A stretch of 63,724 nucleotides of DNA, counting the filler, from Kipferlia bialata (Eukaryota), in NCBI GenBank assembly GCA_003568945.1. It is 6 parts of 6 records of this genome, joined end to end, with 100 filler letters (N's around TTAATTAATTAA, not from the genome) between each part and the next. Parts side by side here need not be neighbours in the genome. Positions count along the whole stretch, not along the records: positions 27,221 to 40,716 come from BDIP01000938.1; 5 more parts are not named here. The stretch is one strand, 5' to 3'. Each line of letters opens with the position of its first letter. The stretch's first letter is position 1. Positions 3,820-40,869 of this stretch are shown in pieces. A program made the position numbers and the translations under genes. A model generated the notes under the pieces. The model was not told where the DNA came from and made no database searches. It saw nothing but the letters and a program-made list of their open reading frames with translations.

Positions 3820-6800
3820 GATATGTACCTGGCTAGTGGGGTTACTGAGTGTGTCCCCAGTCTGGGTTCTCTCGATGAACTCGAGGAAGTCTCTGGCGGC
3901 ACTAAGAAGGACCTATAATTAGAATACATGGAGAAAGAGAGAGATATCCATGAACTGAGAGAGGGGGAGAGAGAGATATCCATGAACTCTAGGAAGTCAC
4001 GGGCGGCACTAAGAAGGACCTACAGTAACGGTATACTAATGTACATATCAATATACAGGGGGTGCGAAAGAGAGAGAAACTGAGAGAGAACATCAATCTC
4101 TAGCGGCACTAAGGTGGAAGTGTTTGTATACAATTTGTCATTTTGATATAGATCTACTTCATATCACCACATACCTCGTCAGGATCCACCCCTCCCTCCT
4201 CCCTCTCCCCAGGCCACTGCTGGGGCAGGGGGATCTTCTTGGTGCGGCGCCTGGATGTTGAGTACGTGTGAGTGTTTCGCATATAATAGCAATTGTACAA
4301 CTGCAATGATTATACAGTTGTAGGCACATATGATGTCTGGTCATTTCCATACCTCTGCATAACTCTCCACCACTGGGGACCCTTCTCCCCACCCTTCCCC
4401 TTCCCCTTGCGCCCTCTCCCTCTCCTACCCTTCCCCCTCTGGAATCTCTCTCTCTCCCTGTCCCGGTCTCTCATGCCATACAGCCTCACACCCTGAAGGT
4501 AAAAAGGGTGTAGGAGGAGAGAGTATGTGTATTTGTGAAAAAGGGTGCAAGCGGAGAGAGTATGTGTGTTTGTGTAAAGAGGGGGCAGAGAGAGAGAGAG
4601 AGAGAGAGAGATACCTCAGGTGGACTGGTACTGGCCCTCCTCAGTACAAATATACATGTATATACTATAAGTATGGTCTTATCACATGCAAAATACATGT
4701 GATTTAGTATAGTATGTATGAATTATGTATAATATATGTACCTCAGGTGGGCTGCTGGTACTGGCCCTCCTGAATACATATATATACAAATATATACTAT
4801 GAATATACTATTAGTATTTTCAGACATAACACTATATACTGTACATATATGTAATGAATATAGCACATATATGTAATGAATATAATTCTATAATAATCAT
4901 ATACCTCAGGTGGACTACTGGTACTGGCCCTCCTCAGTGACCATCCAACATCCTCCTCTCCCTCTCCCTCTCCCTCTCTATCCCATAGAGATGAGGATGT
5001 GTGGATGCCACGACCGGCGGTAGTCTCTCTCTCTCTCTCCCTCTCTGCCCCCTTAGGGCCGGGCCACTTGAGACGCTGGGGATGAATACACTACTAAAAG
5101 CAATAGCATTTTTACTCATAGTTTATACTCTATACTCATATATGTCCACTTCAGACGCTGGGGATAAGTGTACACAATTATGTACAATACAAGACTTACA
5201 TTATATATGCTATACATACCTGGGGCGATATAGACAGAGGTGAGCGTGTGAGTGGCGACAGGGCATGGCTGAAGTGGCCCATGGAATATATATGTATATA
5301 CATATATAATCTATATAGAATATGCAAGGGAAGTATATCACATGGTATATGTATGTGTGTATTTGTATATACCTGGGGTGATATGGAGAGTGGGGATCTG
5401 GTCAGAGGTGACAGTGCATGGCTGAAGTGGCCCATGGAGTAGTCCCCATCCCCATCCATCTCTCCCTCTATGCGCATGGTGGGGAGGGGTGCCCTTCTCT
5501 AGGGGTGAGCACAGTAACAATATGTATATACTATATATATATATGTATATGTATATGTGTATATATGTATATATATTGCGCATGGTAGGGAGGGGGTGCC
5601 TTCTCTGGATATAAGAGAGTACAGAGATGCTATTGTATAAGTCCAGCTGACCAATTATTGCTCTCTATGTACTATATGTATATATATGTATATATATGTG
5701 GATGCGCATGGTGGGAAGGGGGTGCCTTCCCTAGATGTGAGTGTGTTGAAACACCATATACATACTATAAATATATATGTATGTATATATTGGTGTACAT
5801 ATATATATATATATTATACTTGTTAGTATACACATGGCAGGCAGTGCAGGTCTATTCTAGGGGTGAGCACAGTAACCACTATCCATAATAGTGCATATAT
5901 GTACTCTATAGATGCCTCACTCTCTCTCCACATAGTGTATATATATACGTTAAGAAATTCATATATATACTCTCGTCAATACACACCCATATGGGTATTG
6001 GCCTATATGTTATGTGTATACATATATCCTTCAATACAAGCGTACCTGCATCGGTGGGCTCTCTCTCTCTCTCTCATGCCCCTGCCCTTCATACATGCAT
6101 ATACACGAATAAGTACATACACTTCTAGACACTCACATGTAAATAGTTAGTACCTGCAGTACTATTATAAGCGTTACTACACATCCTACCTGCATCGGTG
6201 GGCTCTCCCCCATCCCCCTGCCCTTCATGCCCTTGACAACGCCTGGGGGGTTAGATTGTGTATGTGGCCAGAATTCATGGTATATGTGGTATAAAGTAGA
6301 GTATATAGAAACGCATATATACTATATCCTTGCTCTGCATGCCCTTGACAACGCCTGGAGGGTTAGAGAGATATAGTAGAGGAATATATAGTGTATAGTA
6401 TATAGTAGACCATATATATAGTATATAGTAGATCATATATATATGTAGTTTAGTAGGGATATATATACAATGAATCAAGAAATCCTGCCCTTCATGCCCT
6501 TGACAACGCAGGGTTAGGCAGACATAGAATTTATGTATGTGGACAGGGAGTAAAGCAAACGGCTGGAGGTAGAATTGCATTGAGCCCGTCAAGTATCCTG
6601 TATGACTACGCCTGAGTGCATATATATAGAGAGAGTTATAGAGTACACCCAGCCTAGAACGACCCTATGGACAGCATGGAGTCATACCATATGTATATAT
6701 ACAAGTACATAGTATGCTTATGATACTTATACATACTTCCATAAACATGTATCCGTATATATATATATGTACATACCCTTGAATGGCCCTATGGACAGCA

Positions 6801-18315: not shown

Positions 18316-18589
18316 CGAGTAGTGTCTGGTAGAAACGTGATTGTTCAAGGATGCTTCCGAAGCTGTGCGAAGCTGCGACTTATGGTATCAGCGTCTGAAG
18401 GTTTCAACCCAGAATCTGAAGCTACCAATTGTCTGAAACACAAATCATCTCAACAGTTACATCACAATGCATACGGCGCCATGGCTGAAATGACAAGTCA
18501 AAATTTACTCTAGAACGAGGGAGACAAATAGAAATCGGAAACACGTGAAACATGGACATAAAGTATTGTCGAACTGGCAGTTCAACTGC

Positions 18590-18611
18590 CCCTCACAGTG
18601 AGGGCCTCACT
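18590..18611. mobile_element. Putative DNA-transposon excision footprint, T=CCCTCACT
   Basis: CCCTCAC-AGTGAGGG-CCTCACT = T[1-7]+revcomp(T)+T[2-8]; a variant scar lies adjacent at 18571-18590. Confidence 0.6.
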
Positions 18612-18750
18612 TCTTGACCTTGGTCTTCAGGGGTCCAACCCCTGCTAAAGACACTGTCCACACAGCCAGTAAGACAATGACCACCACTGAGGTGATGGAG
18701 ACTGGGGTGGTGCCCTTGACGCCTCTGTTCTTGACGAGGATGCCTAAGGT

Positions 18751-18789
<39 letters not shown>

Positions 18790-19273
18790 CGGGGGGGGGG
18801 GGGGGGGGGGGGGTCACGAATAGCTTCCCGACACCATACCGTGATCATAATAGCCAGAAGCTGCACAAAGTACCTTGAACAGTGCCTTCCAGAAGGTGAC
18901 ACCGACATATGAAACCCTCCTACCCACTACACGTCACATATACACACAGACCCTACCTCCACATTCCTCTTGAACTTTGACCTGGTCAGACTGTGCTGGA
19001 TAAAGTCAAGGGCATCTCTAGGGGTTAGTATAGGTTAGTATTCAGGAAGAGAGACTGGATAGATATGGACTGAGAGACAATATCCGGTCAGATGCACTTC
19101 TCTGCGGCGATATGGTCCTCTGACACCACCCTCACCTGCCGGATATGTCCTTGACAGACGATATCTGGGGCAGAGCGGGGAGGGATGGCATGGTCTCCCA
19201 AGATATGCAGGTCAAGAGAGGTCCTGACATGAGATACGTGGGATACTGTTGATCTGTCAGAAAACATCTCCAT
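18607..19273 (-). CDS. Possible small protein with C-terminal transmembrane helix
   Basis: Last exon can read GILVKNRGVKGTTPVSITSVVVIVLLAVWTVSLAGVGPLKTKVKK*; upstream exon phases could not be fully reconciled. Confidence 0.3.
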
Positions 19274-19602
19274 ACTGGATTATAGTACCCACAATGTACA
19301 GATATACCACACTAATAGCACTCACACTGTGGTGTGGGTCAGAACACAGGGGAGTCTCGGTTCTCTGTAGTGGCAGAGGAAACAGCTGGAGCTGCGAGAT
19401 GCCTTCTCTCTGTTGGCACAAAAACTGTAGGGGTGTAGACTCGAAGACGGATTTGTCCCAGCGAATTGTTCATCGTCTCTAATTGTTCTGTCCACTGGCT
19501 TTTTTGACCATATCTGCTCATTTCGTCTTCAATGAACGTAGAGCGCAGAGTATTCCCACAGACGGATTTAGACGGGATTGAACTAGAACAGGATAGTGTC
19601 AG

Positions 19603-19624
19603 GTCCTAAGTTAGGACTCCTAAC
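19603..19624. mobile_element. Putative excision footprint, T=GTCCTAAC
   Basis: GTCCTAA-GTTAGGAC-TCCTAAC. Confidence 0.6.
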
Positions 19625-19984
19625 AGTATATACTCCTAACATAGGAGTCATTCACTGACTGGCAAAAAGAAATTTTTGGAATGAGTCGAATAATGAGTCA
19701 CTCACCTAGAGTGTGTTCTATTGATATAGATATAAGATATTAGACACAGTAGACACTATAGACATAGGGACTCTTCTTGTAAGACGTGTTGCTCCAAGTC
19801 TAGGAGGCATATACTTCCCACCCTTGACCCTGTATGTATTGCCCACGAGTTGCCTCAGAGGTGGAACCGTGCCTCTGTTCCCTTGGGCCACTCTGTGTGC
19901 ATCATGACTGGGCGCAGGTCGAGACCAGGTCTGGTGTTAGAGGGGTGGTAGAGCAGGTATCAATTACTGAATCTGGCCCAGGCC

Positions 19985-21250
19985 ATCACACCAACCCTGG
20001 GGTTGGTGTGATGGTATAGTAGGATTCAATCTTCCAATCCATACACCAGTGCCTGTGGCTTCTTAAAGGAAGGAAGTACCAATACTAAGACAATAGGGAT
20101 TAGTCATATGGACGTAGTACGTCACGTACACTCTGTCAGGGTGGGTGCTCCACTGGGAGTAGACACCAAGGCGGCTGAAGATCTCAGGCTTGAAGCCATC
20201 GGGCCTGGGTCAGTTCACCAGTGACATATAGAGCTACAATGGCTACATACTATTGGTATATCGACGAAGAGGCCCGTACCTGATACCACTCCCTAGCAGT
20301 GCCTCCACTTGACGCAGTGTCTTCTGCAGATAGGCATGGTCTCTGAAGTCTGGGCACCTCACACACACGATGTACATCCTGACATGGCCGTCGTCACACA
20401 GCTGCCGTTAGTCTAATGTGGATATATATACTCTAGAAATAGCTCATGATAGAACTTCTATCATCGAAGATATGATAGAATGTCGTCGTATAGTGGTATA
20501 CCGTTGAACAGGCCCTACCTTGGGGACGCAGGAGCAGGCACAGCCCAGAAGATTGTGTCTGTCTCCGTCGATGCCATTCACAACAGCCCGTGCCACCTTG
20601 GGCCACACTGTATCAATCTGATGGTAGTGGACAGTGTTCACTGAACACCCTACATAGTATAGTATTGTAGTGTACACCCAAGGTAAGAGGACTCAACACT
20701 ACTCCTATTACTGTAGAAGTGTATACACATGCTACTTACGTCTCTGGGTACAATCGGTATCAACAGCTTTGTCTGTGTGTGGCCAAGTGGGACAGTGGCA
20801 GCAAGGATCCTGTCTCTTACATCCTGTGTGTGAATCACAATGGGATACACTGAGAATTCTTTGTGGACATATACTACCCTAGAAGTTCAATCTCATTCAT
20901 GACCTGCTTGTACTCATCTGTGGGGGCCTTGTTCTGCAAGAACATGTCCACGATGCTCTTGTACTGAGGCAAGGCTCTCACTGTTTCGAGGTCGTAAGGA
21001 ACAGGGTTGTTCAGGTGGTTGGCTACCATCAGGCATCTCACTCTTCCGTCATCCCTTCGCTGCTCTGATGGAATGTGGTGGGCCAGGTAGTCCTCAATAG
21101 CCTCGCTGGTGCCGTCGAAGTGGATACGGACCTGATTATTGGGATACAATTGTAAAAGAGATATAGTATCGGTTTGGCAACTATATGTATGTGCAGAACA
21201 GATTGTACCTTTGGTGGCTGGTCCTGGTGGTATCGGCTCTGAGCGTACAT
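19985..21250 (-). CDS. DUF1917 / UPF0696 (Bles03/C11orf68-like, eIF4E-like fold) protein
   Basis: Spliced motifs HQIDTVWPKVARAVVNG, YIVCVRCPDFRDHAYLQKTLRQVEALLG and GFKPEIFSRLGVYSQW follow the family pattern D..W..va.a...G / icVy..Df.D / yKpD.yT.LGiY. Last exon uncertain. Confidence 0.65.
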
Positions 21251-21566
21251 TGGATTCAAGGCAATAACCAGTGTGTACTAGGCGCTGGCGATAGAAGAAG
21301 GAGGGGGCTATTAGATCACTGCGTCGTGGAGGGTATCTCCAACAAGCCCTAATCTGTCACCGCCGCTAAATACCGTAGACTCTACAGTATCTGGTCCTGA
21401 TTCAAGGAACACGGTCTAGCTTTTCGCGGAATGACTAATGCGACACCTAGTCAATATATAAAGTACACTGAACGGTCCAGGACCAATGAATACAATTTAC
21501 TAAAGATGGTTTCTAGAGCAATAAGCTGGCTCTCACGACGGTTATGTCCTATGAGATGCTCTTGAC

Positions 21567-22530
21567 TCAAGTGAGGCTCTTAAGTCTGATAACCTCACCT
21601 GTCACAGTATCTAGCACGTTACCGACTGTCATGCCATATCCTGTGTAGCTTTGATCAGGAGCCACTAGACACCGCTCTGAGCCGAGATGAAGGGGTCGGT
21701 CTGCAAGGAAGACTTCTGGTAGCTCATAGTGGAGGCTGCAGTGAAGTCTATCCTTTGCTTGGTGGCCAGGTTCACCGTCATACTCACGGTCCATCATCTG
21801 CCAGCCTAGTTTCGGAGTGTATCGTGCCCAGAAGAGGTAGGGTTGCACACGCATGTCTAACTGCTGCGCAAACAGACAGGCCCCGAAGGGAGTTTGACAG
21901 AAGGTTAACCTCTTGCACTTGGGTAGGCTGCAGGGAGTGTGTGTCCAGCGCCTCTCTTCGTACTCCAAGTTGGACAGCGCACGATATGTCTTGGAACGTC
22001 CCATGATGCTGGAGTATACAACAAGACTACCCTCGTAACAGAAGATGGCTCTGACATATGGCCTGTGGTCCCCGCTTCCATCACCCTCCCCAGCCACCAG
22101 GGCCTGTGCAAGTACAGGTGCGAGGTCAATGTCACTCCAGATGTGGTCGTCAAGGGAGAGCACCTGGCACCTCAGGTGGTCGGCAGGGTATGACTCAAAG
22201 GCAGGTACGGCATTGCACACGTAGACTCTGCAGCCGTCACAAGCGAGTAGTGGACAGTGATAGAAGGTGACAGGGGAGACCACTTCCTCTTCCTCTGCTG
22301 TACCGTCCTCCAGAATGGTGATGATTGAGCATCTGCGGTCACGTCCAAGAACAAACGCCTGGAGTCATGCAACTTCTATAACAATCTTTCGACATACTAT
22401 ACTGATGTCTACTCGACTATAGTCACTGTATGCCTCACCTTGTTGTGCCGAATCTCAATCACAACTGAGGATCTAACCAGTAGAAGGCTGTCCTGTGAGA
22501 GGCTGGAAACCCAGTGCCGAGAGCTGCAGA
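21567..22530 (-). CDS. Divergent kelch-like beta-propeller protein
   Basis: 238-aa ORF extends upstream in frame (AFVLGRDRRCSIITILEDGTAEEEEVVSP) to an acceptor near 22360, with another exon at about 22440-22530; motifs VLSLDDHIWSDI, RYTPKLGWQ, VLDTVTGE. Confidence 0.55.
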
Positions 22531-22729
22531 GTGACACACTAGTGGGATAGGGATCATTCTGTACTGTGAGAGGTAGTGATCAAACAGTAATTTACAGTCT
22601 GACAATATCATAGTCTACAGTAGTACACGATCTTGGCATAATGGGATATATATGCTAAGGAAGTGTCAATGAGCTGCCTTGTGCAACCACGGTAACAACG
22701 TATGGGTAGTGCTACACCAGTTGATAGTA

Positions 22730-22751
22730 GATGTAAGTTACATCATGTAAC
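22730..22751. mobile_element. Putative excision footprint, T=GATGTAAC
   Basis: GATGTAA-GTTACATC-ATGTAAC. Confidence 0.6.
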
Positions 22752-22915
22752 ATATATCAGATACACATACCACATCACTGGCCATAGTGGTGCCGTAGGT
22801 CGGGCCGTACTCCCATGTTAGCTTCCCAATGGGAGCCTCTGTGTCAAGTGTGGACATTCCAACTAATAGTCAGTATGGGGGCGAAATTACTGAGCCTAGT
22901 AGCTGGTAACGATTA

Positions 22916-22937
22916 CCTGAGAATCTCAGGCTGAGAT
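22916..22937. mobile_element. Putative excision footprint, T=CCTGAGAT
   Basis: CCTGAGA-ATCTCAGG-CTGAGAT. Confidence 0.6.
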
Positions 22938-23338
22938 AGACTGTGTTATCGTGTTTGTTGAAAGAGCGGCAAGATGGGTACATACCGTGTAGTGTACACC
23001 GTGATGGTCCACTATGTCTACAGTGCTGACACTCTCACCATCACCTGTAAAGTCGACTCAAAGCTTGACATTTCCGCAACACTGTTTAGTCAAGAGGGAA
23101 GTGTAAACAGTGATCTCGAGACCCTTCCTGACCTCATAGCAAAACACTAAACCACAACAGACCACACTGATACTAGGCCTAGTCTAAATCTAACATCGTG
23201 TAGACACAATAGCCACTAACAGCCAACAAGGTCTATACCTCTTTGGAGACTATATCCTCGTAACATACTGAACAGTGTAGCCATGAGGAGGTCATTGATA
23301 TGAGACCAACATTGTAGAGTAACAATGGAAATAGCTGA

Positions 23339-23986
23339 CTAGCCAAAGCTAAACCTGGGCCAACCATTGTCTTCAGCCGTATGTCTAGGTGCGTTCGCTC
23401 CTGTCCCAAACCCGAACCCAGGCTGAGTAGTAGGATTCGGCGGAGTAGGGTTTCCAAAGGCAGCCAGCCCCACAGCACGCCCGTGACGGCCCCCAAGTAT
23501 CCTTGTTAGAGGGACACTAGCCCGCTGTCTAGCAGAGTGCTCTTCGAGAAGTGCAGTGCGCTGCCTAAAGGCCTCGGGATCATCCCAATCCTCTACCCTG
23601 GGTGTCACTGACTGCTCACTAGAATACATACTTAACATATATCATTGGTCACTGGGGGTGTACTACTCCGCTACTCACCTTGCGTATCCCATGGCACTGT
23701 TGGGGTACACGAGGTCTGGGTGTATGGCAGCGTCGTGGGTCTTGTTGTGTCTGTGCATCGTCACCCTTGTGTCATCGGTACTGGATTCTATACTCAGATC
23801 CAAGTGCCCACGCAAGGTGCCAGGCTGAGAATGAGTCGAGGCATTCTTAATTTTTTTATATATATAGTATGGATATATATATGGATAGACAAGACACCTC
23901 ACTGTAGGAGAGTGTACATCATATGGAAGAATAATCGGTGTTATTACATTACCCACAGGGTAACCAGTCAACGCTTCACCAGCCAT
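23339..23986 (-). CDS. Hypothetical protein with FG-rich C-terminus
   Basis: GC-rich exon-like blocks with splice signals; last exon VEDWDDPEAFRQR...AFGNPTPPNPTTQPGFGFGTG...RFSFG*. Confidence 0.35.
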
Positions 23987-24205
23987 GTACCTTCAGTGGG
24001 AACAACCATGTGGGGTTTAGGCGGTGGGCAACATCTCCACTGATCTGAGGTGAGTAACTAGCTCACATGCATAATGAACAATCACAATACTTTACAAAAC
24101 ATTCACACCACAGGTTACGAGGGACTGATGATAACGTGTGTGTGACTGGCATTGTACTACTTACCGTATCATACAGGATCATGCTGTCCCTGTTCCATAG
24201 CACTA

Positions 24206-26200
24206 TCAGACGGTCGAAGGCCTGGCGGTAAGTGCATTAATAGTAAGCGGCATGATCGACAGACAACAATAATCACTTGTTGAGTAAAAACAATCCTCGC
24301 ATCCCACCTTAACATGTACCGCACTGTACGATGCCGTCACATGAGCGGGGAATGACACATGGAGGTCTGTCCACCCGTCACTCAGGGTGAAGCTGGGTAA
24401 GAGGGGTATGCAGTATGTGCTACATAAATACAACAGAGAATATTCACTGTATTTCTCAGATATGCTCACCTGAAGGCATGGTAGCGAGCAAACACGTAGA
24501 GCACCCCGTGGACTACTACACATGCACGGTACATGGGGTCCTCATGCTGTGTTAGAAGGGATACTCTAGGAGTCTCTACTGCGATACCGTGAGAAATCAA
24601 TGACAGTGAATGTGTTGCGGATTTATAATAGAATACACGTGGAAGCGCAGTATCGTGAACAATACGCACCATGATACCCCTTGGGCACTGGTGATCTAGG
24701 GTGTCAAAGGTCCCAGTAGCAGGATCATAGAGACGCATGATCTCTCTACCACCCTGGGGTTAGAAGGGACCACTATATACTACACCTCGTGTATTTGCAG
24801 CAGCTCTCACCTGGTCCTCCTCGTCCCGTGCCCCATGCCTCTCGGCACAGTGGCCAGTGGAGCCGAAGACCAGGAACTTGCCGTCTAGACACACCCCCAT
24901 GCCAGCTGGGGTAAGTATGATGTGTATCCTATATAATTTATATAGCATATTGTGATCGATATCAACATGGCAATACTACTATATAATACTACGGAACTTA
25001 CCGTCTAGACATACACCCATGCTAGATGGGGTGAGGGTATATAATAGAGTGATAAATAGAGTAGTATGATCCAATATACTGTGCACATCTTATAGTGAAT
25101 CGATATCTTATAGAGACAGACGCACATGCCAGCTGAGGTGCGGGTATTCTATATGAAACAAAACCAAAATGGAGACAGATACTTTAGCTAGCTAGGGGGT
25201 GGGACTTGGATGTATATCCGGAAATTCACCCCGAAAGTGTAGACAGTGAATCACACACATACACACACACATATATATTAATATACACATATATAAGAAC
25301 TGGACATCGCACCTGTGTCCTTAGGTTCCATGCCGTCTCTGTCGGGATCTGCTGTCCTGTCTGTAGGTCAGTGACGATATAACATAACAATTAATGAATG
25401 TATAATATGATGGTGTAACAACAATAATACCCAATAGACCATATCAGACACACAATACGGGACAACGTACCTTCTGGCCTGACAGTCTTCCACTCAAGAG
25501 TGTCCAGAGGTAGTATGTTGAGCTCTTCTGAAGAGTTAGACACTGGCTTAAGATCCTAACTACACAGTATATACAGAATACTCTAGATTAGTGAGCTAAG
25601 GCATACAGCCTGTATTACAAGCTGTCTGTAAATAGGTTCACACCGCATCAAAGCATAAGCACCTGTACCAGCCTTGCTGCCAAATGGGACGGTAACTGGG
25701 TCCCCAGATCTGCAGTGAGACACACTGCTGTGACATACACCTTTACACACTATACACTTACGATGCTTAATACCAACCTGAGTCTCTTCCCGTAGAGGTA
25801 CACACAGCCACCGACCCTAGCAATTGCAAGGGGCTGGACTGTCACACAGACACCACGAGGGGCCTCGGGTTACACACTATAAGTATAAATATACACGCAG
25901 TAAAATATGTGTAAACGAGTGAACTACAATATCCAACCTGGAGACGGGATGGGATCTGTCTGGACTCCAGTAGGGATGTGGGCTGCTGCTGGTCTTGGTG
26001 GGAGAACACTGAGGTGAGAGCCGTATATAGTCAGCAAATAGAAAGAATATATGATGGCAATGTTCCTTATGAATCGTGATGTCACATACACCACATACCG
26101 TGTGTCACAAGCTGATTGTCCTGGACGCTGAAGGAGAGTGACTCCCCAGGGCCTCCCTCAACCCATCTCTGGTACGAGGGTGCCTTGGTGGCTAGTGTCA
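24206..26200 (-). CDS. Kelch-repeat-like protein (multi-exon)
   Basis: Exon peptides AIARVGGCVYLYG, LNILPLDTLEWKTV, GVCLDGKFLVFGS, RLYDPATGTFDTL, CVVVHGVLYVFA, FTLSDGWTDL. Confidence 0.6.
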
Positions 26201-27059: not shown

Positions 27060-27308
27060 TTCAAGATAGAGTATAGATGATAAGTGGGGGGGGGGGGGGG
27101 GGGGGGGAGGAGGGGATAGANNNNNNNNNNNNNNNNNNNNNNNNNNNNNNNNNNNNNNNNNNNNTTAATTAATTAANNNNNNNNNNNNNNNNNNNNNNNN
27201 NNNNNNNNNNNNNNNNNNNNGAAAAAAATTTTTTTTTGTCCCCCCCCCCCCCCCCCCCCCCCCCCCTCTCCCCCTTGTTTGTATATACATATGTATCCTC
27301 ACCCCCAG

Positions 27309-30300
27309 CTAGGCCCTGTGCGTGTGGCCGAGAAGGACCAGGAGGAACCAGCAAGTGGTGTGGGGTACATCGTAGGTACACACACTAATCTCTACGTATT
27401 ATGTGTATTATTTGATATTCAACGTAGTCGTCTAATGACTGCTATTGGTGTCTCACCCCCAGGTTATGACGATGGTACCCTCCTGGCCTTTGCCGTCACT
27501 GACCAGGGGCGTGTGTACACACACAACCTGACACCCCCGCTGTCACCAAGGCCACCCATCCCATCCACTCTGAGGTACCATATATATTCATATACACTAG
27601 TATTCACTATACATCTTAAACGATTGTCATATATATATTCATGCGTTTATGTTTGCTTTGCCCTGACCCTCAGGCTCCTAGAGTATGCCCAGCCCCTAGG
27701 CGGTGCCCCTGGTCGTAACCCATCCCTGGCCATCAGACACCGGATACTCTTCATAGGCAGTAGTACAAGCACGCCAGTTGTGTACAAACTGACAGGTATT
27801 GCCATGTAGGGGTATTGTGTATGTGTAGTATGTGAATTATCCTACTCACCCCCAGGTGATGATGTCCTGAGTCCTCTGCTGTCTGAGCTAGGCCTAGGGT
27901 TCTTGGCAGCTCCATTCAGGCAGTGTCTCGGACCAGTCCAGGTTTTTATTATACTACATTATGTACTCATATTCATATGTTTCATATACAAACACTAGTT
28001 TATTCCCTGTGTCGGTTTACTTTCCTGGCCTCACAGTGTAGGATGCCATTGTGTTCAGACCCCATGGTGAGGTGACAGACTTGATGGTCACAGTCAGTGG
28101 ACACGCTAGGTATAACTTCACATATATACTAACTATATATTTGTGAAATATATGGTTGTTGACTGTCTCTCCCTTACCCATAGGGATGGACTCCTTGCCA
28201 TCGGCATGCCCTGCTACCCCCTCAAATCATATACATTCATAGACTTATGTCTATCATTTGTGTAATAGTACTGAGTGACTTATCCTAGGGATGGTCTCCT
28301 AGCCATCGGCATGCCCTGCTACCCCCTGGAGCGACTCTCTGCCCCAGGCCCAGTCATCCCCACTCCCTCTCCATACATGAGATGCTTCGGACATGCCAAC
28401 GGCCAGTACCTGCTCCTCAGTGACAGGTGAGAGGCATTCACACTGTATATACTGTGTATACAGATATGTATTTGTATTAGACACTTATTGTGTATTCTTA
28501 CCATTGTGTGTCTAATATTCAGGGGTGCAGGCTACACCTCTGTGTTCCGGGTGGAGCAGATGGACACGGTCAGGTTCAGACCCATTGCACCCCACCACCT
28601 GACAGGACTCGACATGGAGCACGCAACACTCAAGGTATATTCATATATTGGTATATGTATATATATATGTGTGTGTGTGCGCGCGTATATATATATGTGT
28701 ATATACACGACTCGACTTGGAGCACACAACACTCAAGGTGAGCAATGTAAATATCAAATGTCTTCAAAACTTGGATAGAATATATCTTCTGTTGAGTTTG
28801 ATTGATATCACAATTCTGACCCCAGGTCGAGCCCGTCATTCTCAACACCGGCCACATGTGCTCATGCGATATGTCGGGACCAGGTATACATTCATGTTTT
28901 TGTCTTTTAATGCGGCCTTCTGACTTCTCTCCTCATGATATTTCTTGATCGATTGCACTGACAACCCAGGTCTTGCCAAGCACGCTGCCATGGAGAGAGA
29001 GAGGCTTAAGAAGGTACATATGAATACATTGTCATGTATTGTTGTGTGTTCTTACATATGTCTCAATCCAGGCCCGCCAGATGGCTGTGGACAGGGAGGG
29101 CAAGGAGCCAGACGCTGAGACCCTTGCTAAGCAGGATATGACCAAGCTACTAGTGCAGGTATGCTATATTATAGATATACATTTGAATTGTAATTATTGG
29201 GTCTGGTTGGTTTGCTGACTTCCAGGTGACCCACACCGAGATCAGGGTATTATGTAACGACCCCTTCAAGACTGGGCCCAACAAGGAGTTACCCGCTGGG
29301 TCCCTTGTCACCAAGTGGGTGGCACCACACACAAGCAGGTGGGACATGTACCAAATTAATACACTTACTGTTAGCAATCTTTCTCTAATAGAGTGTTCTT
29401 CTCACTCCAGAGGTCATCTGCTCCCATTGATGGGCGCCAGTGTTAGCAACACATTCATCGCAGTCTCAAGGGGAAGGAGGTTAGAAAATGAGTATTCATA
29501 AGTACCTACTATATTTCCTGCATCCTCAGTTGTTATAATTGGTTGTGTTACTGGGATATCTTACTGGCCCCAGGACCTTTCTGCTTCATGCCCATCGTAC
29601 TCAGTTTATGTATTCTCGTTTTGAACTCACGGTTAGGATCTTTCTGCTTGAGATGCGGGTAACCAAGAAGGACGATGATGGCAGCATGGGGGTGGACCTG
29701 TGCGTCAGAGCCAACTTCAAGACTACCAAGGTCACATACCAGTATTGCATTTGTAACATATATGTATATGTAGTGTGTATTCTCTCACCCCCAGGAGGTG
29801 TCGTGTCTGACTGTTGTGGCCGATGCCTCCAAGCCCATGAGGTCCGGGCAGCCAGTCCCAGAGGCATGTAGGTGAGGATGACTCTAAATGTACATTCTTC
29901 CCTGCATTGACTAATATTTTGTATATATTATTCCCATTATAGTAGCAAAGTATTGTGTGTTATGTCTTACTCCTCAGGTTCCCCGGTCTCCTCTTTGTCT
30001 CCACCTACTCTGGCCACCTCCACGTCCTGTCCCTGCCCCCACACTCCATGGCACTCGTGGATGAACTCGCATGCCCATACTGTCTAACGTAAGTTGTAAG
30101 CTATATTACGGTATATACTAGGTACTATCACTGCCTCCCCATTCCATGGCACTCGTGGATGAGCTGGCCTGTCCTTATTGCCTGACGTGAGTACCATTAT
30201 ATGTTCATAATTACTCTCTTCGCACACTGACACTGATGTTGTTGGAGGGTGACACACACTTAGAGGCAAACGTTATTCATTTGACTGCTGCTATATCATA

Positions 30301-33300
30301 TGTATGTTTGCGACCTATTCTAACCTCAGTGGTCTGCCCCTTCTGGGTCACTACCACCTTAGCGACAGAGCCACAAGCATCAGGTACATGCACATCTATA
30401 CATGTATCAATGGATCGTATGGATATTCTCTTTCCCACACACCAGGGTTGCCAGGCTTAGCCCCGCTGTCCCCTGCCCCTACCTCCTAGTCGGTCTGGCC
30501 TCTGGCACTGTGGTTGTATCTCAACTGCACATTGCTCTGACAGAGGATGCATGCGACCTCTTTGCACCCTTGAGAGTGCCGGTGGAGGTATATTATTATA
30601 GTATATATACTATGTAAATATTCCATACACTCATCTTGGTCCGATGTCTTTCTATATTTTACTGGATATGTTAACACCAGGGTGCATCTGCTGTCCAGAA
30701 GGCCCCCTTCCCTGGGATGGCCGTGGCAGACATTGAGTTACAGGAGACACAGGAAGTGACTCTAGGTATGACATATACCCTTGATTCTCTCTATCTCAGC
30801 ATTGTATTATATATATGTTGTGTGTGTCCACTGACCCCACAGGCACTGAGCCCGTCTCAATGTCCTTTGTATACCCTGTCTCCAGTGCAGATGTGTGTCC
30901 ACACGTCCTAGTCAGATCCTCAAGGTATGTACAATACAGGTGTAATATACACAAGCATATTCTCTACTTATACATCGTGTATCCCCTCCTTACCCCCCAG
31001 GTCTGCCTTCATCTTCTGTGACAACGAGTCCCTGTGCTGTGTGTGTCTTTCCACAACACCACCTGCCAGGATCACAGAGGCTACACCACTAGGTATATCC
31101 TATCATAATATTATATACAAGGTCTTGTGGTCAACACCACTATGTGTAACATATCATATTCCGAGGTGTATTGTTCAGTTCAGTTTCTCACTTCAGGTCT
31201 TGCCATTGATGAGTTGTACGAGACCCCGTCTGTGCAGCTGCTGAGAGACCCAGCCATTGGGCTGGGACCCGCCAACCCGGTCCCATCCATCGCAAGACCT
31301 AGGTAATTCACTGCATACATATTACGATTATAAGGATTTATATATGTATGCAGTGGTCGTACGTCCCCTCTGACCCACAGGACTGAGCGTATGGGCAGTC
31401 TCCACCTAGACCCCCTCGTGGTGATTGTTGACCAGCCAATCCACTCCCGGTATGTAGTATTCCATTATATATTTATACTGTTATGTTATATTTTTTATTC
31501 CAGTGCAGTTACTACATGCAATATGCTAACTTCCAGTGATGTTGCCGGTGTCCACGATGCAGTCAGGGACCAGTCCCAGCCAGAGTACAGGTATCATTTA
31601 CAATCTTCTCTGAGGTTTAGATCTAACTCATTATATATATCTCTCTGACCCCCAGACTGTACCTGGTGGCCCCCAAGCTAGAGTACTCCATTGCCTGGGA
31701 GTCTGTGCTGCTCAAGAGAACACCAGTCTCAGTCACATACAGGTACATGGAGTCTATATCACGTTACCAATACTGAATGCCACTCCATGAGCCTTTTGGT
31801 TCTTACTAGTTCTAGATACTAACTCCCAGTGAGCCCCTTGGATGCCTCGCTGTCTTGACAGAGCACTACGTCACAAAGCAGCAGATCAGGTATTATGAAC
31901 TAGAAGTACTGTTCACGTTCATGTATAGCTGTATCCCTTCGTCTTCTTTGATATATATATTCAGATTTACATGTCAGGTTTGTAGACTATGAGACCATGC
32001 GTGTCGTGCATGAGCTGAGACTGCCAACTGGTCTCACCTGCGCTGTGTTCAAGATTCTACCCATTGGGGGGTCTCTGATCCTGGTGGCTTCACTGTACAG
32101 TCAGGTTAATATATGTAATAACTAATATCTCTGTGTCTTTACAGTATTCTGAATACTGTAATATTGCTCGTACACATTGCCATTGTACATAATGTATAGT
32201 GTGTACTACTATACCTTACCCCCAGGCCGCCTTTGCCGTTGAGATGGACGATGTGCCCGACCCAAGACTGGCGTTCTACTCGGTCAAGGAGGCCATTTCG
32301 ATGCCGGGGGAGATAAGGGCACTCAATGTGAGTATGGGCAGTACATATATGAATTCATACCGCACTGTATTGTCTATCAATGTCCATGTATATCGATTTC
32401 GGATTAACCCTAACCCCAGGTTGCCCACATTGGAGTTGAGACCCTCTCTCAGCCCTGTCTGTCAATGTCCATGCACCCAAAGGGTATGGTGTTCTACAAT
32501 ACATATGTTGGATGTAATATATATATGTATTTCTGTGTGTGTATAAGATTTTATTGTTATCTCACCCCTCAGGCTATGCCGAGCGCCTTGCCTCCCAGAG
32601 AAGCATGTCCACACTCAAGCCATCAGCCAAGTGAGTGGCACATACATGCATATACAGAGTCTCTACTGCAGTGTTGCGTGTATGTAACTGTTGTGTGTAT
32701 GTTCTTATCAACCCATCTTACCCCCAGGGACAGTGCCGTCGTGGCTGCAGCTGTGGGTAGCAGTGTGGTGGAGATCCAGGTACCCAAACACAATCAGTAT
32801 CCTCTTGCCACTATCTTGTCAGTACATATGCACTCTTTGGTATTCTAACCCCATTAGTTCTTATACCTAACACAATCCACATGCTCTCTAACCCCTTCAG
32901 TTCCACGGCACCGAGAACCCTCCCTTCCTGATCCACTCCTCTGCCAGCACTGCACCCTCAGTGTCACAGAGCGTCGTGTCACCCACACAGGTTAGTTAGT
33001 CTTCATATACTGAACACAAATGAGACACCGTGCATATTCAGTATACTTTATTATGTGGCTGTATATCTCACCCCCAGCTTGGCATCTCCTCTGGACCCCA
33101 GTTTGGCTCTCTCTCTGACGACAACCTGTCTGTGTCTGATGATGACTTGGAGGCAGTGTCAGGTGATGCGCTGCTGCCAGTCTTTGGACAGAACGGAAGG
33201 TGAATATGTATATCTCTCACTCTCTATGAATCTCTTCCGTGATCCTACAGCGAGTGTGTGTAATTATTGTGTTCCATCATATAACTCTGGTACGTATAAG

Positions 33301-34866
33301 TATGTTTGTCCCTGTCTTACAAGTCAGGGGTGCCCAGCTGTCTGCCTTTGAGTTGAACCCTGACACAGCCGGGGATGTGCCAGTACCAGCTGGACTGCCC
33401 GCCATCGGTGAGTGGATATATATATATGTGTGTGAACACATACCTTGTTACTGGGTCTATTCTGAACCCCATTGAGAACTCTATGAACTGCGATTGTGTT
33501 CAATGACAACACAGTATCTGACCCCCAGGCAGCGTATGGTCCTTCTCCTCTCTTCAGACCCTCCTAGCCATGGCAGTGGCCAAGCAACCATCCGTCATGA
33601 GCTCATACGTCAGTCCTCCCAAGGTATACCTTTTGGATCCTATATATGTATTCTATTCTATTAGGTATTCTTCTCATATCTTCCTAATTCAGCTCAACAA
33701 CACCCGCCACCCCTTTGCGGGTACATCCATGACATCTGCCCTGATAGGGTCGTTAGACGACCAGGAGTGCGAGACACTGGATGAGGGTAGCAAGGTATAC
33801 CACACTATACACAGTGTATCTTTATATGTACATCAGTGAGTCTCATTCCTATGATGTATGTGTATGTAGTCTTCCCTCACCCTAGGTGTACCTTACTAAC
33901 CGTGGTGCTGTTGAGTCCCCGACTGGCAGGGTCAACATGCAGCTGTGTGCAGGGCAGCCAACATACATCAAGAACATCAAGGCAAGACACACATTAGATA
34001 CATACTAACAGTATTGACTTGTATGAATATGGTATATATGTATACCCCTCTAACCCCAGGCCCTGGCCGATGTCCTCAAGTCCAAGGAGTCAACCAGAGA
34101 GGACCTATTCTTCCCAGTCAACGACGGTACGCACTCTCCGTACTAGGCCTAGTATCCCTACTTCAGCTATTTCCTTGATTCGGAATAGTTGTTCAATTCC
34201 AGTAATTCAGGCTTGGTCTCTTACTCCAGGCACCTGTGTGCTAGGCGTTGAGAGTGGCGGCGGTGTCTCCCTGTACCAGAGGGTGATGGACGGGAGTGGC
34301 GAGTGGTCCCTCAAGCTGATAGCAGCCGATGTGCACCACGTGGCCCCTGACCCCAAGAACGCACTCTACCTGCCGATGAAGTATGCAGTCGTGGTGGATC
34401 ACAGCGGGGCATTCAGACTCTTAGGTATACATTATATTGATACTAATATACATATATGTCTTATTGTTACTATAATTCTTTTGTGTATATCATGTTAGAG
34501 TATTAAGACTTAGAGTATTTAATTGTTCACATTCAGGTGTGGGTGAGAGCACCATTGATGTCGCCCTGAGGGGCAGGGACGAGACCGAGGAGAGCATCCC
34601 CCTGCACCCCTTTGAACTGGTGGCAGAGTGCAGGCTCAAGCACAACCTCAACGTCATTAGGTGGGGTGTTAGGCATTGTTTTGTTAATTCTATATAATTA
34701 TAGGTACACGTGTAGAGGGGATAGACACGTGTCTGGTTGCATTATGAGGATATATGGATATTCTTACCCCCAGGCAGATCAGACCCCAGCTTGTGTTCAG
34801 AGATGCCCCACTCACAAAGACACAGCCGGCAGGTATATATATATATATAGAGAGAGAGAGATATAA

Positions 34867-34897
<31 letters not shown>

Positions 34898-35480
34898 TGC
34901 CCCACTCACAAAGACACAGCCGGCAGGTGGATGCATATATCTATATGTATATAACAGTATTGTATAACAATATACATATCCGATAAGGCTCTGACCAATG
35001 ACACAGCCGGCAGGTGGGTGGATACATAAATACACTATGTACATATATATATTTGTATACCTACATTTATACAATATGTACATTTATACATGTATGCATA
35101 TACATGTCTACATATATTTCTTTCTATTCTCTTACCCCCAGCCCAGTCGACCCTGTCCTCCCCCTCAGTCTCCACCCGTCCTCTGCTCCACCCCTTTGGC
35201 CCACCTCCCACATCTCCCAACGGGTCTGCCAGGCCCACACCCATCACAGTGGTGGGATTCAGCGATGCAGGAGCCGTGGTTATCTTCTGCCCAGTGCACT
35301 CTAGGCACTACACGCTGCTGAACCACCTCCAGACGTCAATGTCCAACCACATCAAGTACGAATACATTAAGTATATTCGATACATTAGTGTTGTATGTAT
35401 CGCTATCTCTTACTAACCCTAGGCTCCAGCAGCATACATCCAATGCAGTCGGTTCCTGGGCTCACCCCTCATGTTGGGAG
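27309..35480 (+). CDS. DDB1/CPSF160/SF3B3-family triple beta-propeller protein, most like DDB1 (partial, about 40 exons)
   Basis: LFIGSSTSTPVVYKL and CLGPVQDAIV...VTVSGHARDGLLAI match the MMS1_N region; GAVVIFCPVHSRHYTLLNHLQTSM...NAVGSWAHPSCW matches the CPSF_A C-terminal region. The final IDGD segment is not seen. Confidence 0.65.
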
Positions 35481-35680
35481 GTAGGACACCATTCCATATA
35501 CTATCGTCTCCCCCCCCCCCCCCCCCCCCCCCCCCCCCTTTTTTTTTTTTTTCCACCCCCCCCCCCCCCCCCCCCTTTTTCCCCCCCCCCCCCCCCCCGT
35601 AATTTCTATATCGTTCTCCATTACCAAACATCTCACTACTCTATATGATGTGTATTTTGTCATTTTTCAATCCACAACAG

Positions 35681-38437
35681 CCAGATTGCATTTTTCGGAT
35701 TCCAGTTTGTATGAGCTTAGTGATGATGTTGAACCATATAGGTACACTGTCCTTCCCACCAGAAGACTCTCTCTCTCTCTCTTTCTCTAGAAGCTGTGCC
35801 TTGTCTAACTTCCAGCCAAGTGCATCTCCTCCGAGTCCCATATCTCCTGAGTATATATACATTTCCATAACTCTCTCCATATATTGTAGAAGACACCTGT
35901 TTCCGTTATGTCTGTACTGCATCTTATTCCCAGCCAAGTGCATCTCCTCCGAGTCCCAGGTCGCCCAGCTCTACTCTGCCATCCACCTAGGTGACACAGA
36001 TGGAGCCCTGGAGAGTGTGGCTGGGATACTCAAGACAGTCAAGGCAGAGGAGGTGGGTGATATAGTATTGTGTATACATTAATATGTATACACTGCACTT
36101 GGGATATATCTGGAACTTGAGGTGTTCGAATGCACCTGAGGTGATTTGTATACTTGAAGTGCCGATAACACTACAAGTGTTATTGTATATTTGCACCTGA
36201 GCTGTATATTGAAGTTGAGGTGTTGGATGCACCTGAAGTGATGTATATACATGAAGTGTCGACAACACCTAAAGTTCCGTCGCCACCTGAGGGGTGAACG
36301 GAACTTGAGGTGTTGACTGTACCACATAACTGTTATTGTATTTATGATGGATGTTCTAACCCCCAAGTGCCTAGAAGTGGCTACCAACGTGTTTGCACGG
36401 GACTGCGACCCAACACAAGGTATACTTGTATGCTTCATTATATGTATTGTATGTATGTTTATGTATTCCTCGCTGCTGGATGAGACGTCGATGTAGTATA
36501 AGTGTAGTAGGCCATTGTGTCTCACCCACAGCATTTGTCTCTGAGGTTCTGGAGAGTCTTGACTGTGAGCCCACACTCCTCACCAGTGCCCAGCAGGTAT
36601 GTATGTGTTATACACATACACATTTTGTATATTGGAATATATATTCCTTTTCCTCAAGTGAATTTGAGTTTGTATATTAATCATATATTGTTGACTCGTT
36701 TGACAATCTCTACCCCTCAGGTTAACCAGTGGTGCTCTGATGCCACACACGGACATATTACAGAGATACTCCAGAGTCTACCCAAGGATGTATTCTCAGT
36801 CCTCATCTCTGGTATGTAGATAGTGGCACAAATAGTAATCAGTGTCACTACGTATTCCTAACCCTTAGCCGTGTACTTCGAGGCAGAGTGGGAAGTCCCA
36901 TTTTCCAGGTCTTACACCGGCAGAGGCTTGTTCACACAGTTCAATGGAAAGGTATGTGTAATAGAGGTTATTGTGCAGTGTCTCTACTTCTGTTGGTTCT
37001 GTTCCCAAGAGTCAGTACACATGTTGGTTGATGATTAGATAGAGTATATTAGTAGGGTTCAGATGTCTTTTTTCACCCTAGGCCCGCACCATATACATGA
37101 TGCATAAAGGGCACACACAGATGACCTACAAGCACAGTGACGGGATGCAGCTGGTCTCTCTCCCATACCGCAACTCCGACGTCAGAGCTGTCATTGCACT
37201 CCCAGACCAGAAGGTAGAGACTACATGTAGATATATCTATTATACCTATCATTAATTGGTGTATATTTATTATTGTTTATCTGTAGTCAGCAGGGATGTG
37301 TGGATTTGTCATAGACCCAATCCCTCTACGATACCACTAATATCTAGGGCCGCAGTGCTTTTGCAAAGGCAGGCCGCATCCTGGTAAGACCCGGTTACAC
37401 GTCAGAGGGCACCCGGACAGCTGAGGTGAGTGACGGGCCTCTTACATACACAAGAGTGTGTCGTTGGTTCATGCTCTATTCATGCTCTATTCATGCTCCT
37501 TGCTTATACAGGTCACCTTCGCTCTGCCTCGATTCTCTATGGAGAGTGAGCATGATCTACTCGACATGCTGAAGGTAAGGACACATACACTAACGCAACT
37601 GTGACTGCCTTTTGCTAGTGTTTTGTTTCATAACTCATTATAAGTCTCATCATGATCTAGCAGTATATCGCATTGAAGCTATTGACCCAGAGACATAGTG
37701 AGATTGAGAAAGTATTCAGTTTTCGCTTGCCATGCATCCACCTGTAACCGTAGGAGATGGGTGTCCCCACGGATCTTCTTGACTGCTCCACCACACTCAG
37801 GTGCCGTCTCAACACGATGAAGGTGTCTGGGGTGACACAGAAGGCCACTCTCACAGGTGGGTTGTATTGGAGGGTTGCAGGAATTTGTTTAGAGTGTATA
37901 CTGTGTATCTCCAATGAATATATATATCATGAACATCGTATCTGGATCATGGGTTGTGGGACACCTGTATCTATTGTTCTACACTGACCTGCAGTCACTG
38001 AGAAGGGCACTATTGCCTCCGCCGCTACCGCTATACTCCAGATTGGAGGTGGAGGTCCTCCTCCGCCACCTGAGGCCACGGTATGTGTGATGATAATGAA
38101 TACATGTGATATTGGATATCTGTCTGACTCTGAGGTATATTAGAAGATACTGAGATCAATTAGCATATTTGGATATCTATCAGGGAAACTGTACTGACCC
38201 CCAGGTGATCTGCGACCGTCCCTTCTGGTTCATGCTGTATCTGGGTGACACTCTGCTCTTCAAGGTATCTCGCAAATCACGGGAAATATATAACAATTGT
38301 GTAAATTGGCGTGGTGCTATAGTGGTTACAGTGCTAATTCCCACTTATCATCACCCTAGGCAGCCAAGTGCACTGCACCAAAAGGGGTGGAGAAGCAGAT
38401 GGCCGATGCCTATCGTCACATGTATGGCCTTCACTGA
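35681..38437 (+). CDS. Serpin with inhibitory-type hinge (about 13 exons, N-terminus unclear)
   Basis: Spliced motifs AQQVNQWCSDATHGHITEIL, VLISAVYFEAEWEVPF, QLVSLPY, LPRFSMESEHDLLDMLKEMGV, VTEKGTIASAAT and CDRPFWFML..LLF are the serpin signatures. Confidence 0.9.
36113..36315. repeat. Intronic compound repeat: two ~58-bp direct copies plus an 18-bp hairpin
   Basis: GAACTTGAGGTGTTCGAATGCACCTGAGGTGAT.. at 36113 vs GAAGTTGAGGTGTTGGATGCACCTGAAGTGAT.. at 36211; inverted arms 36263-36280 and 36298-36315 (one mismatch). Confidence 0.8.
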
Positions 38438-39914
38438 TTGAGACAAGTCAGCAAGAAGCCCACTTGAAACCTGTGAAGACAACCTGAAACAAAGCGTCCA
38501 TGATGAGTCACAGGAAATATAAATTATGTTAACGGATAGTCCACGCAATTAAAGGAAGAATCAGTTTCATATATCCAGGGAGAACATAAGTGGGAAATTG
38601 CTCTCGGGGTACGAGTCGAATTCACTTAAGTGTGTCTGTCAGAAGTTTCTGCCATTTCTCACCTGATGTCCGCCCGCTACTGTTTCACTATCTTCCAGTG
38701 TATATATTCTCTGTGTAGGTTCATAATATCCCCAGTCACTCTCATAAGTCTTATGAGAGTCTTATGAGTCATAAGAGCCCTATATTCAGTTTTTCTCAAA
38801 ACCGGTCTCAGCCGGAGGCCACTATACTACTAGTATCATACTAGTATCATACTAGTATAATACTAGTATGATATAGACTATATCAAATTGATACCATATC
38901 AGATATAGTATCACTTTGATGTGTCTGCGTCAAAGATAGCAGCCAGTAATTCTATGAGCTTCATATGCTTCTCAATGAAGTTCATAGAGCGAATGCAGCG
39001 AGTGGAAATCGCTAGCGAATTGTCAGAATGAAACGAATGCCCTGCATTGTATGGTATTGACGCAATTAGAATCTCACTATTAGAATGACATACGCCATTA
39101 TCACAGACGTTGTTTTGTTGTCTAATCTACTGTCAACTGGTTCACGGAAGTCTTTCATCGGAAGTGGATCTCAAGTGGAACCGCGATACAAACTCTCCCT
39201 CTAGAATATGTCGTGCATTTGCCCATCCTCGGGGTCATAGTCTATGTTGTACATTCTATCCTCCTCTTCAAGCGCCTCTCTGGCGTCCCGTCTCGCATTC
39301 CACTTAGCAACCCCTCTCTCCATCCTAAAGTCATTGCCAGCTACAGCCCAATTCAGAGTGTCATCTGGGTATTGTGCCACTCCGTCGAAGCGAAGGGAGA
39401 CGAGGAGGCTCTCATTCCTCGCATACCCTTTATACAGACACTCTGCCAGGCCCAGTTGTGTGATCTCGTCTTGTGATACAAGTATCTCAGGCTCTAGAAT
39501 ATACTCAGTCAGAGGTGGATTGGTGCCAAATAGGCCTTCAAGGTATCTCTTTGGGTAGCTCTGAGGTATGTTGTCAGACCCAATAGGAGACAGGTTACCA
39601 ATGTATCTGGAGTCAAGTGGCCCACGTGAAGTGGGTTGTCTCTCAAAACCTTATGTATTCTAGAGTATAATTGTGGAAGTCTAGTTACCAATACTCACGG
39701 TCTGGGGAAATCTATGTACAGTAACTGACATAGTTTCGTATGTGCCTGTTTCCTAAGGACACCGTATCCAGAGCCCATATCATACTATTTCTGACCAGCA
39801 CGATGTCGCGACCACACACCTAGCTGTCAGGGTTGATACTTACTGCTTGACTGTCGACGTTCCATGTGGCAATGAGTAGGTCAACGATATAATGATAAAT
39901 GAATACCAAGACTA

Positions 39915-40716: not shown

Positions 40717-40823
40717 NNNNNNNNNNNNNNNNNNNNNNNNNNNNNNNNNNNNNNNNNNNNTTAATTAATTAANNNNNNNNNNNNNNNNNNNNNNNNNNNN
40801 NNNNNNNNNNNNNNNNGGGGGAG

Positions 40824-40869
<46 letters not shown>

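What the first reader, a model, noticed from the sequence alone, without database searches (positions are those of the whole stretch)
30024..30192. 65-nt intronic copy with 14 of 14 differences at silent third positions
30024-30088 (followed by GTAAGT) and 30122-30186 (followed by GTGAGT) both encode VLSLPPHSMALVDELACPYCL. Fourteen of 21 codons differ, all silently, around a 20-nt identical core TCCATGGCACTCGTGGATGA. With about 30% of random changes silent, 14/14 has probability near 1e-7. There is no microsatellite at the junction and the whole unit fits within one short read pair, which makes it the cleanest test case. The AG before the copy is in the wrong phase for simple alternative use.
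Basis: seen in the sequence. Interest (0 to 1): 0.85.

Follow-up and report, generated by a model that had tools for sequence, protein, structure and literature searches.

The report
Foreign-allele exon scraps archived in introns
In the free-living protist Kipferlia bialata, many introns hold a spliced-out copy of the neighbouring exon's end that is spelled differently but encodes the same amino acids; these copies are likely scraps of other strains' gene versions left behind by DNA repair, which would be a trace of mating in a group where it has never been seen.

Summary
In detail: 14 of 21 codons differ, all silently. A DNA contig spans both copies unchanged at depth 458, and the one RNA-type contig uses copy 1 and splices copy 2 out. 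The case is not isolated. The window holds 69 clusters of partial exon copies, in two mirror forms: exon end plus donor copied downstream, or acceptor plus exon start copied upstream. Without the focal pair, 113 of 174 changed codons are silent; neutral decay gives 24-42%. Unused copies keep their own splice signals, but the intron bodies beside them are mostly unrelated. A copy that is not translated cannot be kept silent-only in place, so it was likely functional in another lineage and was copied in by one-ended, homolog-templated repair. The organism is Kipferlia bialata. Closest known: amphioxus 'mirages' and repair-mediated duplications. This scan noted splice-junction repeats on other DNA, not on this genome. 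The donor alleles were not found, so the origin is inferred.

The parts
29978..30088 (+). used exon of a beta-propeller (RSE1/DDB1/CPSF1-type) gene
   Evidence: RNA-type contig piece and joints; PF23726 on P0001
30024..30088 (+). used copy (3' 65 nt of the exon)
30045..30064 (+). 20-nt identical core in the used copy
30089..30329 (+). 241-nt GT..AG intron as spliced, containing the unused copy
   Evidence: joint 30088-30330
30089..30121 (+). 33-nt spacer: used donor GTAAGT, ends in TAG, no CTNAY branch motif; shortest spacer seen (one other, with N, ties it)
30122..30186 (+). unused copy, 14 silent differences, 0 amino-acid changes
30143..30162 (+). 20-nt identical core in the unused copy
30187..30329 (+). 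second donor GTGAGT plus 143-nt intron body ending in the used acceptor; unrelated to the first spacer (z -0.3)
30330..30383 (+). next exon
28184..28222 (+). mirror form in the same gene: acceptor plus first 39 nt of exon 28289-28426 copied upstream, 2 silent differences, spliced out
28705..28737 (+). downstream copy in the same gene with 3 amino-acid changes and 0 silent ones (a decayed counter-example), spliced out
34893..35013 (+). two further copies of the end of exon 34774-34832 with donors; the first is identical over 34 nt, yet the intron bodies differ
5220..5288 (-). 69-nt downstream copy, 13 silent and 0 amino-acid differences
47182..47413 (-). two versions (59 and 83 nt) of one whole intron with flanking exon pieces, joined by 38 nt of AT-rich filler
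53853..54250 (-). five versions of one acceptor plus exon start, each with a differently spelled branch point; one 3-state site and one four-gamete pair

Best explanation
The second copy is a real, spliced-out partial exon, one of about 97 in this window, and it is likely a piece of a different, once-functional allele that DNA-break repair would have copied in from a diverged homologous chromosome. Shown: the copies lie in direct orientation in the intron touching their source exon; they carry one splice site and usually lack the other; their differences are mostly silent; their splice signals are intact but differently spelled; the neighbouring intron bodies are mostly unrelated; junction sides are rich in dinucleotide repeats. 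Inferred steps: (1) strains have protein-conserved exons but fast-turning, unalignable intron interiors; (2) in a transient diploid or hybrid a break is repaired on the homolog, pairing only in an exon, and synthesis runs through the other allele's intron and 15-70 nt into the next exon; (3) the free end is joined by microhomology or filler instead of annealing, leaving both versions in tandem; sister-templated events would give the identical copies; (4) selection removes products that delete exon or create a complete extra exon, so one-sided copies invisible to the spliceosome remain; (5) unequal exchange between alleles adds copies and makes mosaics such as the 20-nt core; (6) copies then decay. 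The silent differences would thus predate the duplication.
For: Silent excess: 148 silent and 78 amino-acid-changing differences in 89 scored copies, pN/pS 0.16. Without the focal pair, 113 of 174 changed codons are silent against simulated means of 0.24 and 0.42, maximum 0.52 in 2000 runs; wrong frames reverse the pattern. Silent changes are near symmetric between used and unused copy (52 versus 42). Not used: all 3 clusters in the laid stretch are skipped by the RNA-type contig. Own splice signals: GT kept in 35 of 38 downstream copies, AG in 36 of 44 upstream copies; CTNAY before 31 of 44 unused acceptors against 80% at modelled introns and 8% in intron interiors, and 28 of the 31 differ from the used site at 4 or more of 15 positions ungapped. 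Intron bodies alike in only 13 of 65 pairs, so not plain tandem duplication. Location: 84 of 89 in the adjacent intron, 1 not, 4 undetermined; self-BLAST 61 near, 0 far, 0 inverted. More than two donors: a 3-state site, and four-gamete pairs in 2 of 6 clusters with four or five copies. Divergence fits a spread of donor ages far better than one value (lnL -122.5 versus -139.3). Context: metamonads lack NHEJ, and fornicates lost Rad51A and keep two Dmc1 paralogs (PMC8516963 section 8); Dmc1 is proposed to stabilise mismatched triplets (PMC6719624 abstract).
Against: No donor allele was found: no second haplotype at 85% or more in X1 contigs over 6 kb, none in metagenomes. The model needs very high silent divergence: about 0.2 per degenerate codon on average and 14 of 20 here; the focal pair is still a 0.3% tail under the fitted spread, and a two-class fit (90% at 0.13, 10% at 0.54) is slightly better. 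37 of 82 copies carry amino-acid changes and 19 are identical; the other copies of the middle contigs give 5 silent and 8 changing codons. Spacers are as long as near-whole introns (0 of 70 under 33 nt against 33% expected), which needs filler or selection as an extra assumption. Copy density is very uneven between genes. RNA support covers only 3 of 69 clusters; the rest rest on my own gene models, built after masking the presumed unused copies. Four-gamete pairs can be homoplasy.
Confidence: 0.6

Rival explanations
1. Both spellings are used now: an alternative intron from the GT at 30024 to the AG at 30121, followed by the second donor, gives the same protein, so selection keeps both copies.
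For: This path is in frame; copy 2 starts on a codon boundary right after TAG and keeps a consensus donor GTGAGT.
Against: Donor at 30024 scores -2.5 and the acceptor -0.8, below the 5th percentiles of modelled introns (1.8 and -0.2); no CTNAY; no RNA-type contig on copy 2. Most other copies have no usable far-end site yet show the same silent excess.
Confidence: 0.08
2. Copy 2 is a former mutually exclusive duplicate exon, stranded when the intron in front of copy 1 was lost precisely.
For: It is bounded by AG and GT, is among the longest copies and has saturated silent sites.
Against: The 33-nt spacer is shorter than any of 112 modelled copy-free introns (minimum 47); no branch motif; it does not explain upstream copies that end mid-exon without a donor, and it needs a very recent loss.
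Confidence: 0.08
3. Mirage-type turnover within one population: copies arise from the same chromosome, and frequent unequal exchange or conversion cycles them through the used position, so harmful changes are purged indirectly while intron interiors are rewritten fast.
For: Arrays of up to five copies, mosaics and identical tracts; 19 of 82 copies identical; amino-acid changes are commonest at the far end (26 of 59 in the last quarter, partly an edge effect); mirages are reported as unstable (PMC3087553).
Against: Exchange frequent enough to purge would also erase silent differences; 14 of 21 codons differing needs long separation (inference). It overlaps the best explanation once the exchange is between diverged alleles.
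Confidence: 0.15
4. The donors were paralogs or a second subgenome of an old hybrid or polyploid, since lost, not alleles of an outcrossing population.
For: The two-class fit and the highly diverged tail.
Against: Five differently spelled acceptors and a 3-state site in one cluster need more than two donors; no other contig of X1 holds copy 2.
Confidence: 0.06
5. Assembly artefact: two haplotypes or strains laid end to end.
For: Fragmented assembly, repeats at many junctions, X1 may be the same reads.
Against: A separately assembled contig spans the unit unchanged at depth 458, with no second haplotype; X1 holds 0.99 of sampled words of 27300-35400. Only this contig was tested.
Confidence: 0.03

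Closest known systems
Amphioxus 'mirages' (Adh3, globins BflGb6/BflGb9, troponin C, PGBD5; PMC3087553 and PMC3902484, passages read)
   Same: [quoted passage not shown]
   Different: Mirages are minisatellite-like units (BflGb6: 81-100% alike) known from a few loci. Here only the exon part and splice site are shared, intron bodies are mostly unrelated, differences are mostly silent, and 50 of 153 modelled introns carry copies. The passages read do not mention a silent excess.
Repair-mediated duplications by synthesis-dependent strand annealing (Pace et al. 2009, PMC2671141, abstract read)
   Same: Short, closely linked duplications, including exons and splice sites, ascribed to break repair.
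   Different: Those copy nearby DNA of the same genome; here copies are confined to the adjacent intron and look like versions from other functional lineages.
Tandem exon duplicates with mutually exclusive splicing (PMC9013439, abstract read)
   Same: Adjacent duplicates with conserved coding sequence.
   Different: These copies are partial, lack one splice site and were not seen in RNA.
Gene-end replacement by integrating elements, such as e14 at icd with icdC (recalled; lead from e1-6958313; one search gave listings only)
   Same: A duplicated gene piece differs silently because it was functional in another lineage.
   Different: No element or integrase here; spacers are 33-155 nt of low-complexity DNA in spliceosomal introns.

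Membership tests
Amphioxus-type mirages | Direct duplicate spanning an exon-intron boundary, in the adjacent intron | tested here: met
   84 of 89 adjacent; 0 far, 0 inverted
Amphioxus-type mirages | Both 5' and 3' boundaries duplicated | tested here: met
   31 donor-type and 38 acceptor-type clusters
Amphioxus-type mirages | Normal splicing unaffected | tested here: met
   3 of 3 clusters skipped in one RNA-type contig; contigs only
Amphioxus-type mirages | Minisatellite-like units alike along the whole unit, intron part included | tested here: not met
   intron side alike in 13 of 65 pairs; focal z -0.3
Amphioxus-type mirages | Copy-number instability between haplotypes or cells | not testable with these tools
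   one sample, contigs only
Mutually exclusive tandem exons | Each copy has its own working acceptor and donor, in matching phase | tested here: not met
   acceptor score -0.8, no branch motif, frameshift on whole-exon swap
Mutually exclusive tandem exons | Both copies appear in mRNA | tested here: inconclusive
   only copy 1 in X2 contigs, which drop rare forms
Repair-mediated duplications (SDSA) | Short, closely linked duplication | tested here: met
   offsets mostly near 100 nt
Repair-mediated duplications (SDSA) | Microhomology or filler at the junction | tested here: inconclusive
   dinucleotide-repeat share 0.32 at 75 junction sides versus 0.14 in 32 intron middles, p 0.0007; none at the focal junction; pre-insertion state unknown
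Repair-mediated duplications (SDSA) | Copy taken from the same genome and decaying neutrally (my reading of the class) | tested here: not met
   silent share 0.65 versus 0.24-0.42
Repair-mediated duplications (SDSA) | Empty site in a relative | not testable with these tools
   no related locus found
Gene-end replacement by integrative elements | A mobile element between the copies | tested here: not met
   33-nt spacer; spacers 33-155 nt

The most novel reading that the evidence does not exclude
Kipferlia's introns are a built-in archive of other strains' alleles: homolog-templated repair between highly diverged haplotypes routinely strands exon ends in introns, so one genome records many outcrossing events and a silent diversity near 0.2 per degenerate codon, with a tail from deeply diverged donors. 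That would be genomic evidence of genetic exchange in a free-living metamonad and a route by which intron interiors are swapped between alleles.
Probability: 0.5. Interest if true: 0.9.

Novelty: new variant of a known kind. Interest (0 to 1): 0.78.

Why it matters
[quoted passage not shown] If the copies are alleles, a single assembly gives a test of outcrossing and an estimate of diversity, and a picture of repair in a lineage without NHEJ or Rad51A. It also bears on intron turnover and on how splice sites are chosen among near-perfect decoys, and it warns that silent-only duplicates need not be expressed. Practically, such copies mislead gene models (NCBI model P0002 includes one).

Tried and rejected
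No whole genome is held, so everything rests on this window. Metagenome scans found nothing: degenerate motif 0 matches; P0001, 45 pattern hits and none confirmed. Two protein searches returned only the organism's own models. PDB search hit only the serpin part; no RNA holder listed; X2 is only guessed to be RNA, though its contig skips GT..AG introns. RNA use of copies in the WD40 gene remains untested, as does a computed comparison of P0002 with my model; by reading, NCBI holds a single copy in 24 of 25 clusters, includes the copy at 44708-44681, and starts inside the five-copy cluster. Rejected: read-through or a 33-nt intron (stops); RIP-like mutation (mixed changes); inverted or dispersed elements; an extant paralog as donor. 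Rows dropped: of 137 pairs I removed by hand those at N runs, intron-only repeats and two within-exon repeats before clustering; 89 of 97 extra copies were scored, 82 after dropping those whose modelled splice site scored 0 or less; the five-copy cluster is under-scored because the model starts inside its exon. Not in print as far as searched; the K. bialata genome paper has 0 occurrences of 'duplicat', 'heterozyg', 'meio' in its main text; supplements were not read; the original mirage papers were not seen.

Full report
Observation. The two 65-nt stretches sit 98 nt apart and encode the same 21 residues; 14 of 21 codons differ, all at position 3 and all silently. The chance under random substitution is 1e-8 to 1e-7. 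Run X1 holds 0.99 of the sampled words of 27300-35400, and one of its contigs covers 28712-33300 at depth 458 with no difference or gap. X1 may be the source of the window, so this rules out a joining error of the deposited assembly, not every error in the data. No second haplotype was laid at 85% or more.

Gene and organism. The window is a string of contigs joined by N-flanked linkers. The focal unit lies in an intron-rich gene whose NCBI model P0001 is named Kipferlia bialata and carries the RSE1/DDB1/CPSF1 second beta-propeller family. The RNA-type contig of X2 (5494 nt, depth 69.5) uses exon 29978-30088 and joins 30088 to 30330; nothing of X2 lies on copy 2. Copy 2 is therefore intronic in the main transcript. 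A cut from 30024 to 30121 would be in frame, while a 33-nt intron, use of the second donor alone, or swapping whole exons meets a stop. The sites of the in-frame path are weak and lack the branch motif.

It is one of many. A nucleotide scan blind to codon position found 137 near pairs, which after hand removal of non-exonic pairs form 69 clusters: 48 of two copies, 15 of three, 5 of four, 1 of five. Of these, 31 copy an exon end with its donor downstream and 38 copy an acceptor with the exon start upstream. They occupy 50 of 153 modelled introns, unevenly: 21 of 33, 1 of 16, 4 of 41, 0 of 12, 21 of 37 and 3 of 14 by gene. 84 of 89 scored copies lie in the intron touching their source exon, and none is distant or inverted. 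The used copy was assigned by my own models after masking; the RNA-type contig agrees in 3 of 3 clusters, and by reading, NCBI's P0002 agrees in 24 of 25.

Selection signature. Over 89 copies there are 148 silent and 78 amino-acid-changing differences, 158 of 226 at codon position 3. Leaving out the focal pair, 113 of 174 changed codons are silent; simulations give 0.24 for neutral decay and 0.42 when the used copy also drifts silently, never above 0.52. The picture is mixed by copy: of 82, 26 differ only silently, 19 are identical, 37 carry amino-acid changes. In the focal gene the copy at 28705 has three amino-acid changes and no silent one. Unused donors and acceptors score like used ones, and 31 of 44 unused acceptors have a CTNAY motif (background 8%), mostly spelled differently from the used site. 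Yet the 40 nt of intron next to the site are alike in only 13 of 65 pairs, and several pairs with identical exon parts have unlike intron sides.

Mechanism. An untranslated copy cannot avoid amino-acid changes in place, and most copies lack the second splice site needed for use. The simplest reading is that exon piece, splice site and intron body were functional elsewhere. Five differently spelled versions of one acceptor, a three-state site and four-gamete pairs point to several donors and to exchange among them. At 47182-47413 two versions of one whole intron stand in tandem, alike at the ends, different in the middle, joined by 38 nt of AT-rich filler. I infer repair on a diverged homolog that can pair only in exons, overshoots into the next exon and is closed by microhomology or filler; selection lets only one-sided copies stay. 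Junction sides are enriched in dinucleotide repeats. Fornicates lack NHEJ and Rad51A and keep two Dmc1 paralogs (PMC8516963, section 8 read), and Dmc1 is proposed to stabilise mismatched triplets (PMC6719624, abstract); this fits but tests nothing here. Divergence fits a spread with mean near 0.22 per degenerate codon (0.18-0.30), or slightly better two classes; the focal copy is in the far tail.

Weak points. No donor allele was found. Spacers are never under 33 nt, against 33% expected from a random cut, which needs filler or selection. Hot and cold genes are unexplained. RNA evidence is contigs from one sample for three clusters. The within-population turnover model is not excluded.

Known kinds. 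Amphioxus mirages duplicate both kinds of exon-intron boundary without disturbing splicing (PMC3087553 and PMC3902484, passages) but are whole-unit minisatellites. Repair-mediated duplications (PMC2671141, abstract) are the nearest mechanism. Mutually exclusive exons (PMC9013439, abstract) fail on splice sites. The K. bialata genome paper (PMC5874029, passages) reports 124,912 introns and does not use the word stem 'duplicat'; PMC6679479 (passages) mentions the species only for spliceosome content. Searches listed no description of this pattern. Earlier notes of this scan describe splice-junction repeats on other genomes and none on this one; I used them as leads only.

Verdict. Real, pervasive, not expressed in the data at hand, and best read as stranded pieces of other alleles (0.6). 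New variant of a known kind; interest 0.78.

Noticed in passing
window 13522-13621, 27121-27220, 40717-40816, 54309-54408, 60185-60284: N44 + 12-nt AT palindrome + N44 linkers join separate contigs, so neighbouring genes across them are not genomic neighbours; several contig ends are poly-G or poly-C tracts.
   Followed up: partly
window 27309-38666 (+), P0001: The NCBI model fuses the beta-propeller gene to a serpin. The X2 contig has only about 1.3 kb beyond 33200, while the fused model needs about 2 kb, so these are probably two genes.
   Followed up: partly
window 47182-47413 (-): The only one of 11 introns with both copy types in which the acceptor-type copy precedes the donor-type copy; it could form a pseudo-exon, but its acceptor is weak.
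   Followed up: yes
window 13622-24800 and 36300-44300: No exon copies were detected in these intron-containing stretches, whereas 1-13150 and 44300-54250 are dense; dense genes tend to have more GA/CT repeats in introns.
   Followed up: partly
all modelled introns: 71% of exons end in AG, and intron ends share 2-6 letters on both sides in 14 of 15 RNA-shown joints; the focal donor is the exception, and both its versions use the strong GTRAGT form.
   Followed up: partly
window 55582-58794 (+): GC-rich, long-exon gene that looks like a bifunctional aldehyde-alcohol dehydrogenase (name recalled, not tested); no intronic copies.
   Followed up: no
window 60467-63607 (-): Importin-alpha-like gene (name recalled, not tested) with three copy clusters, one identical over 43 nt.
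   Followed up: partly
window 36130-36310 (+): A roughly 97-nt repeat inside an intron that is not an exon copy.
   Followed up: no
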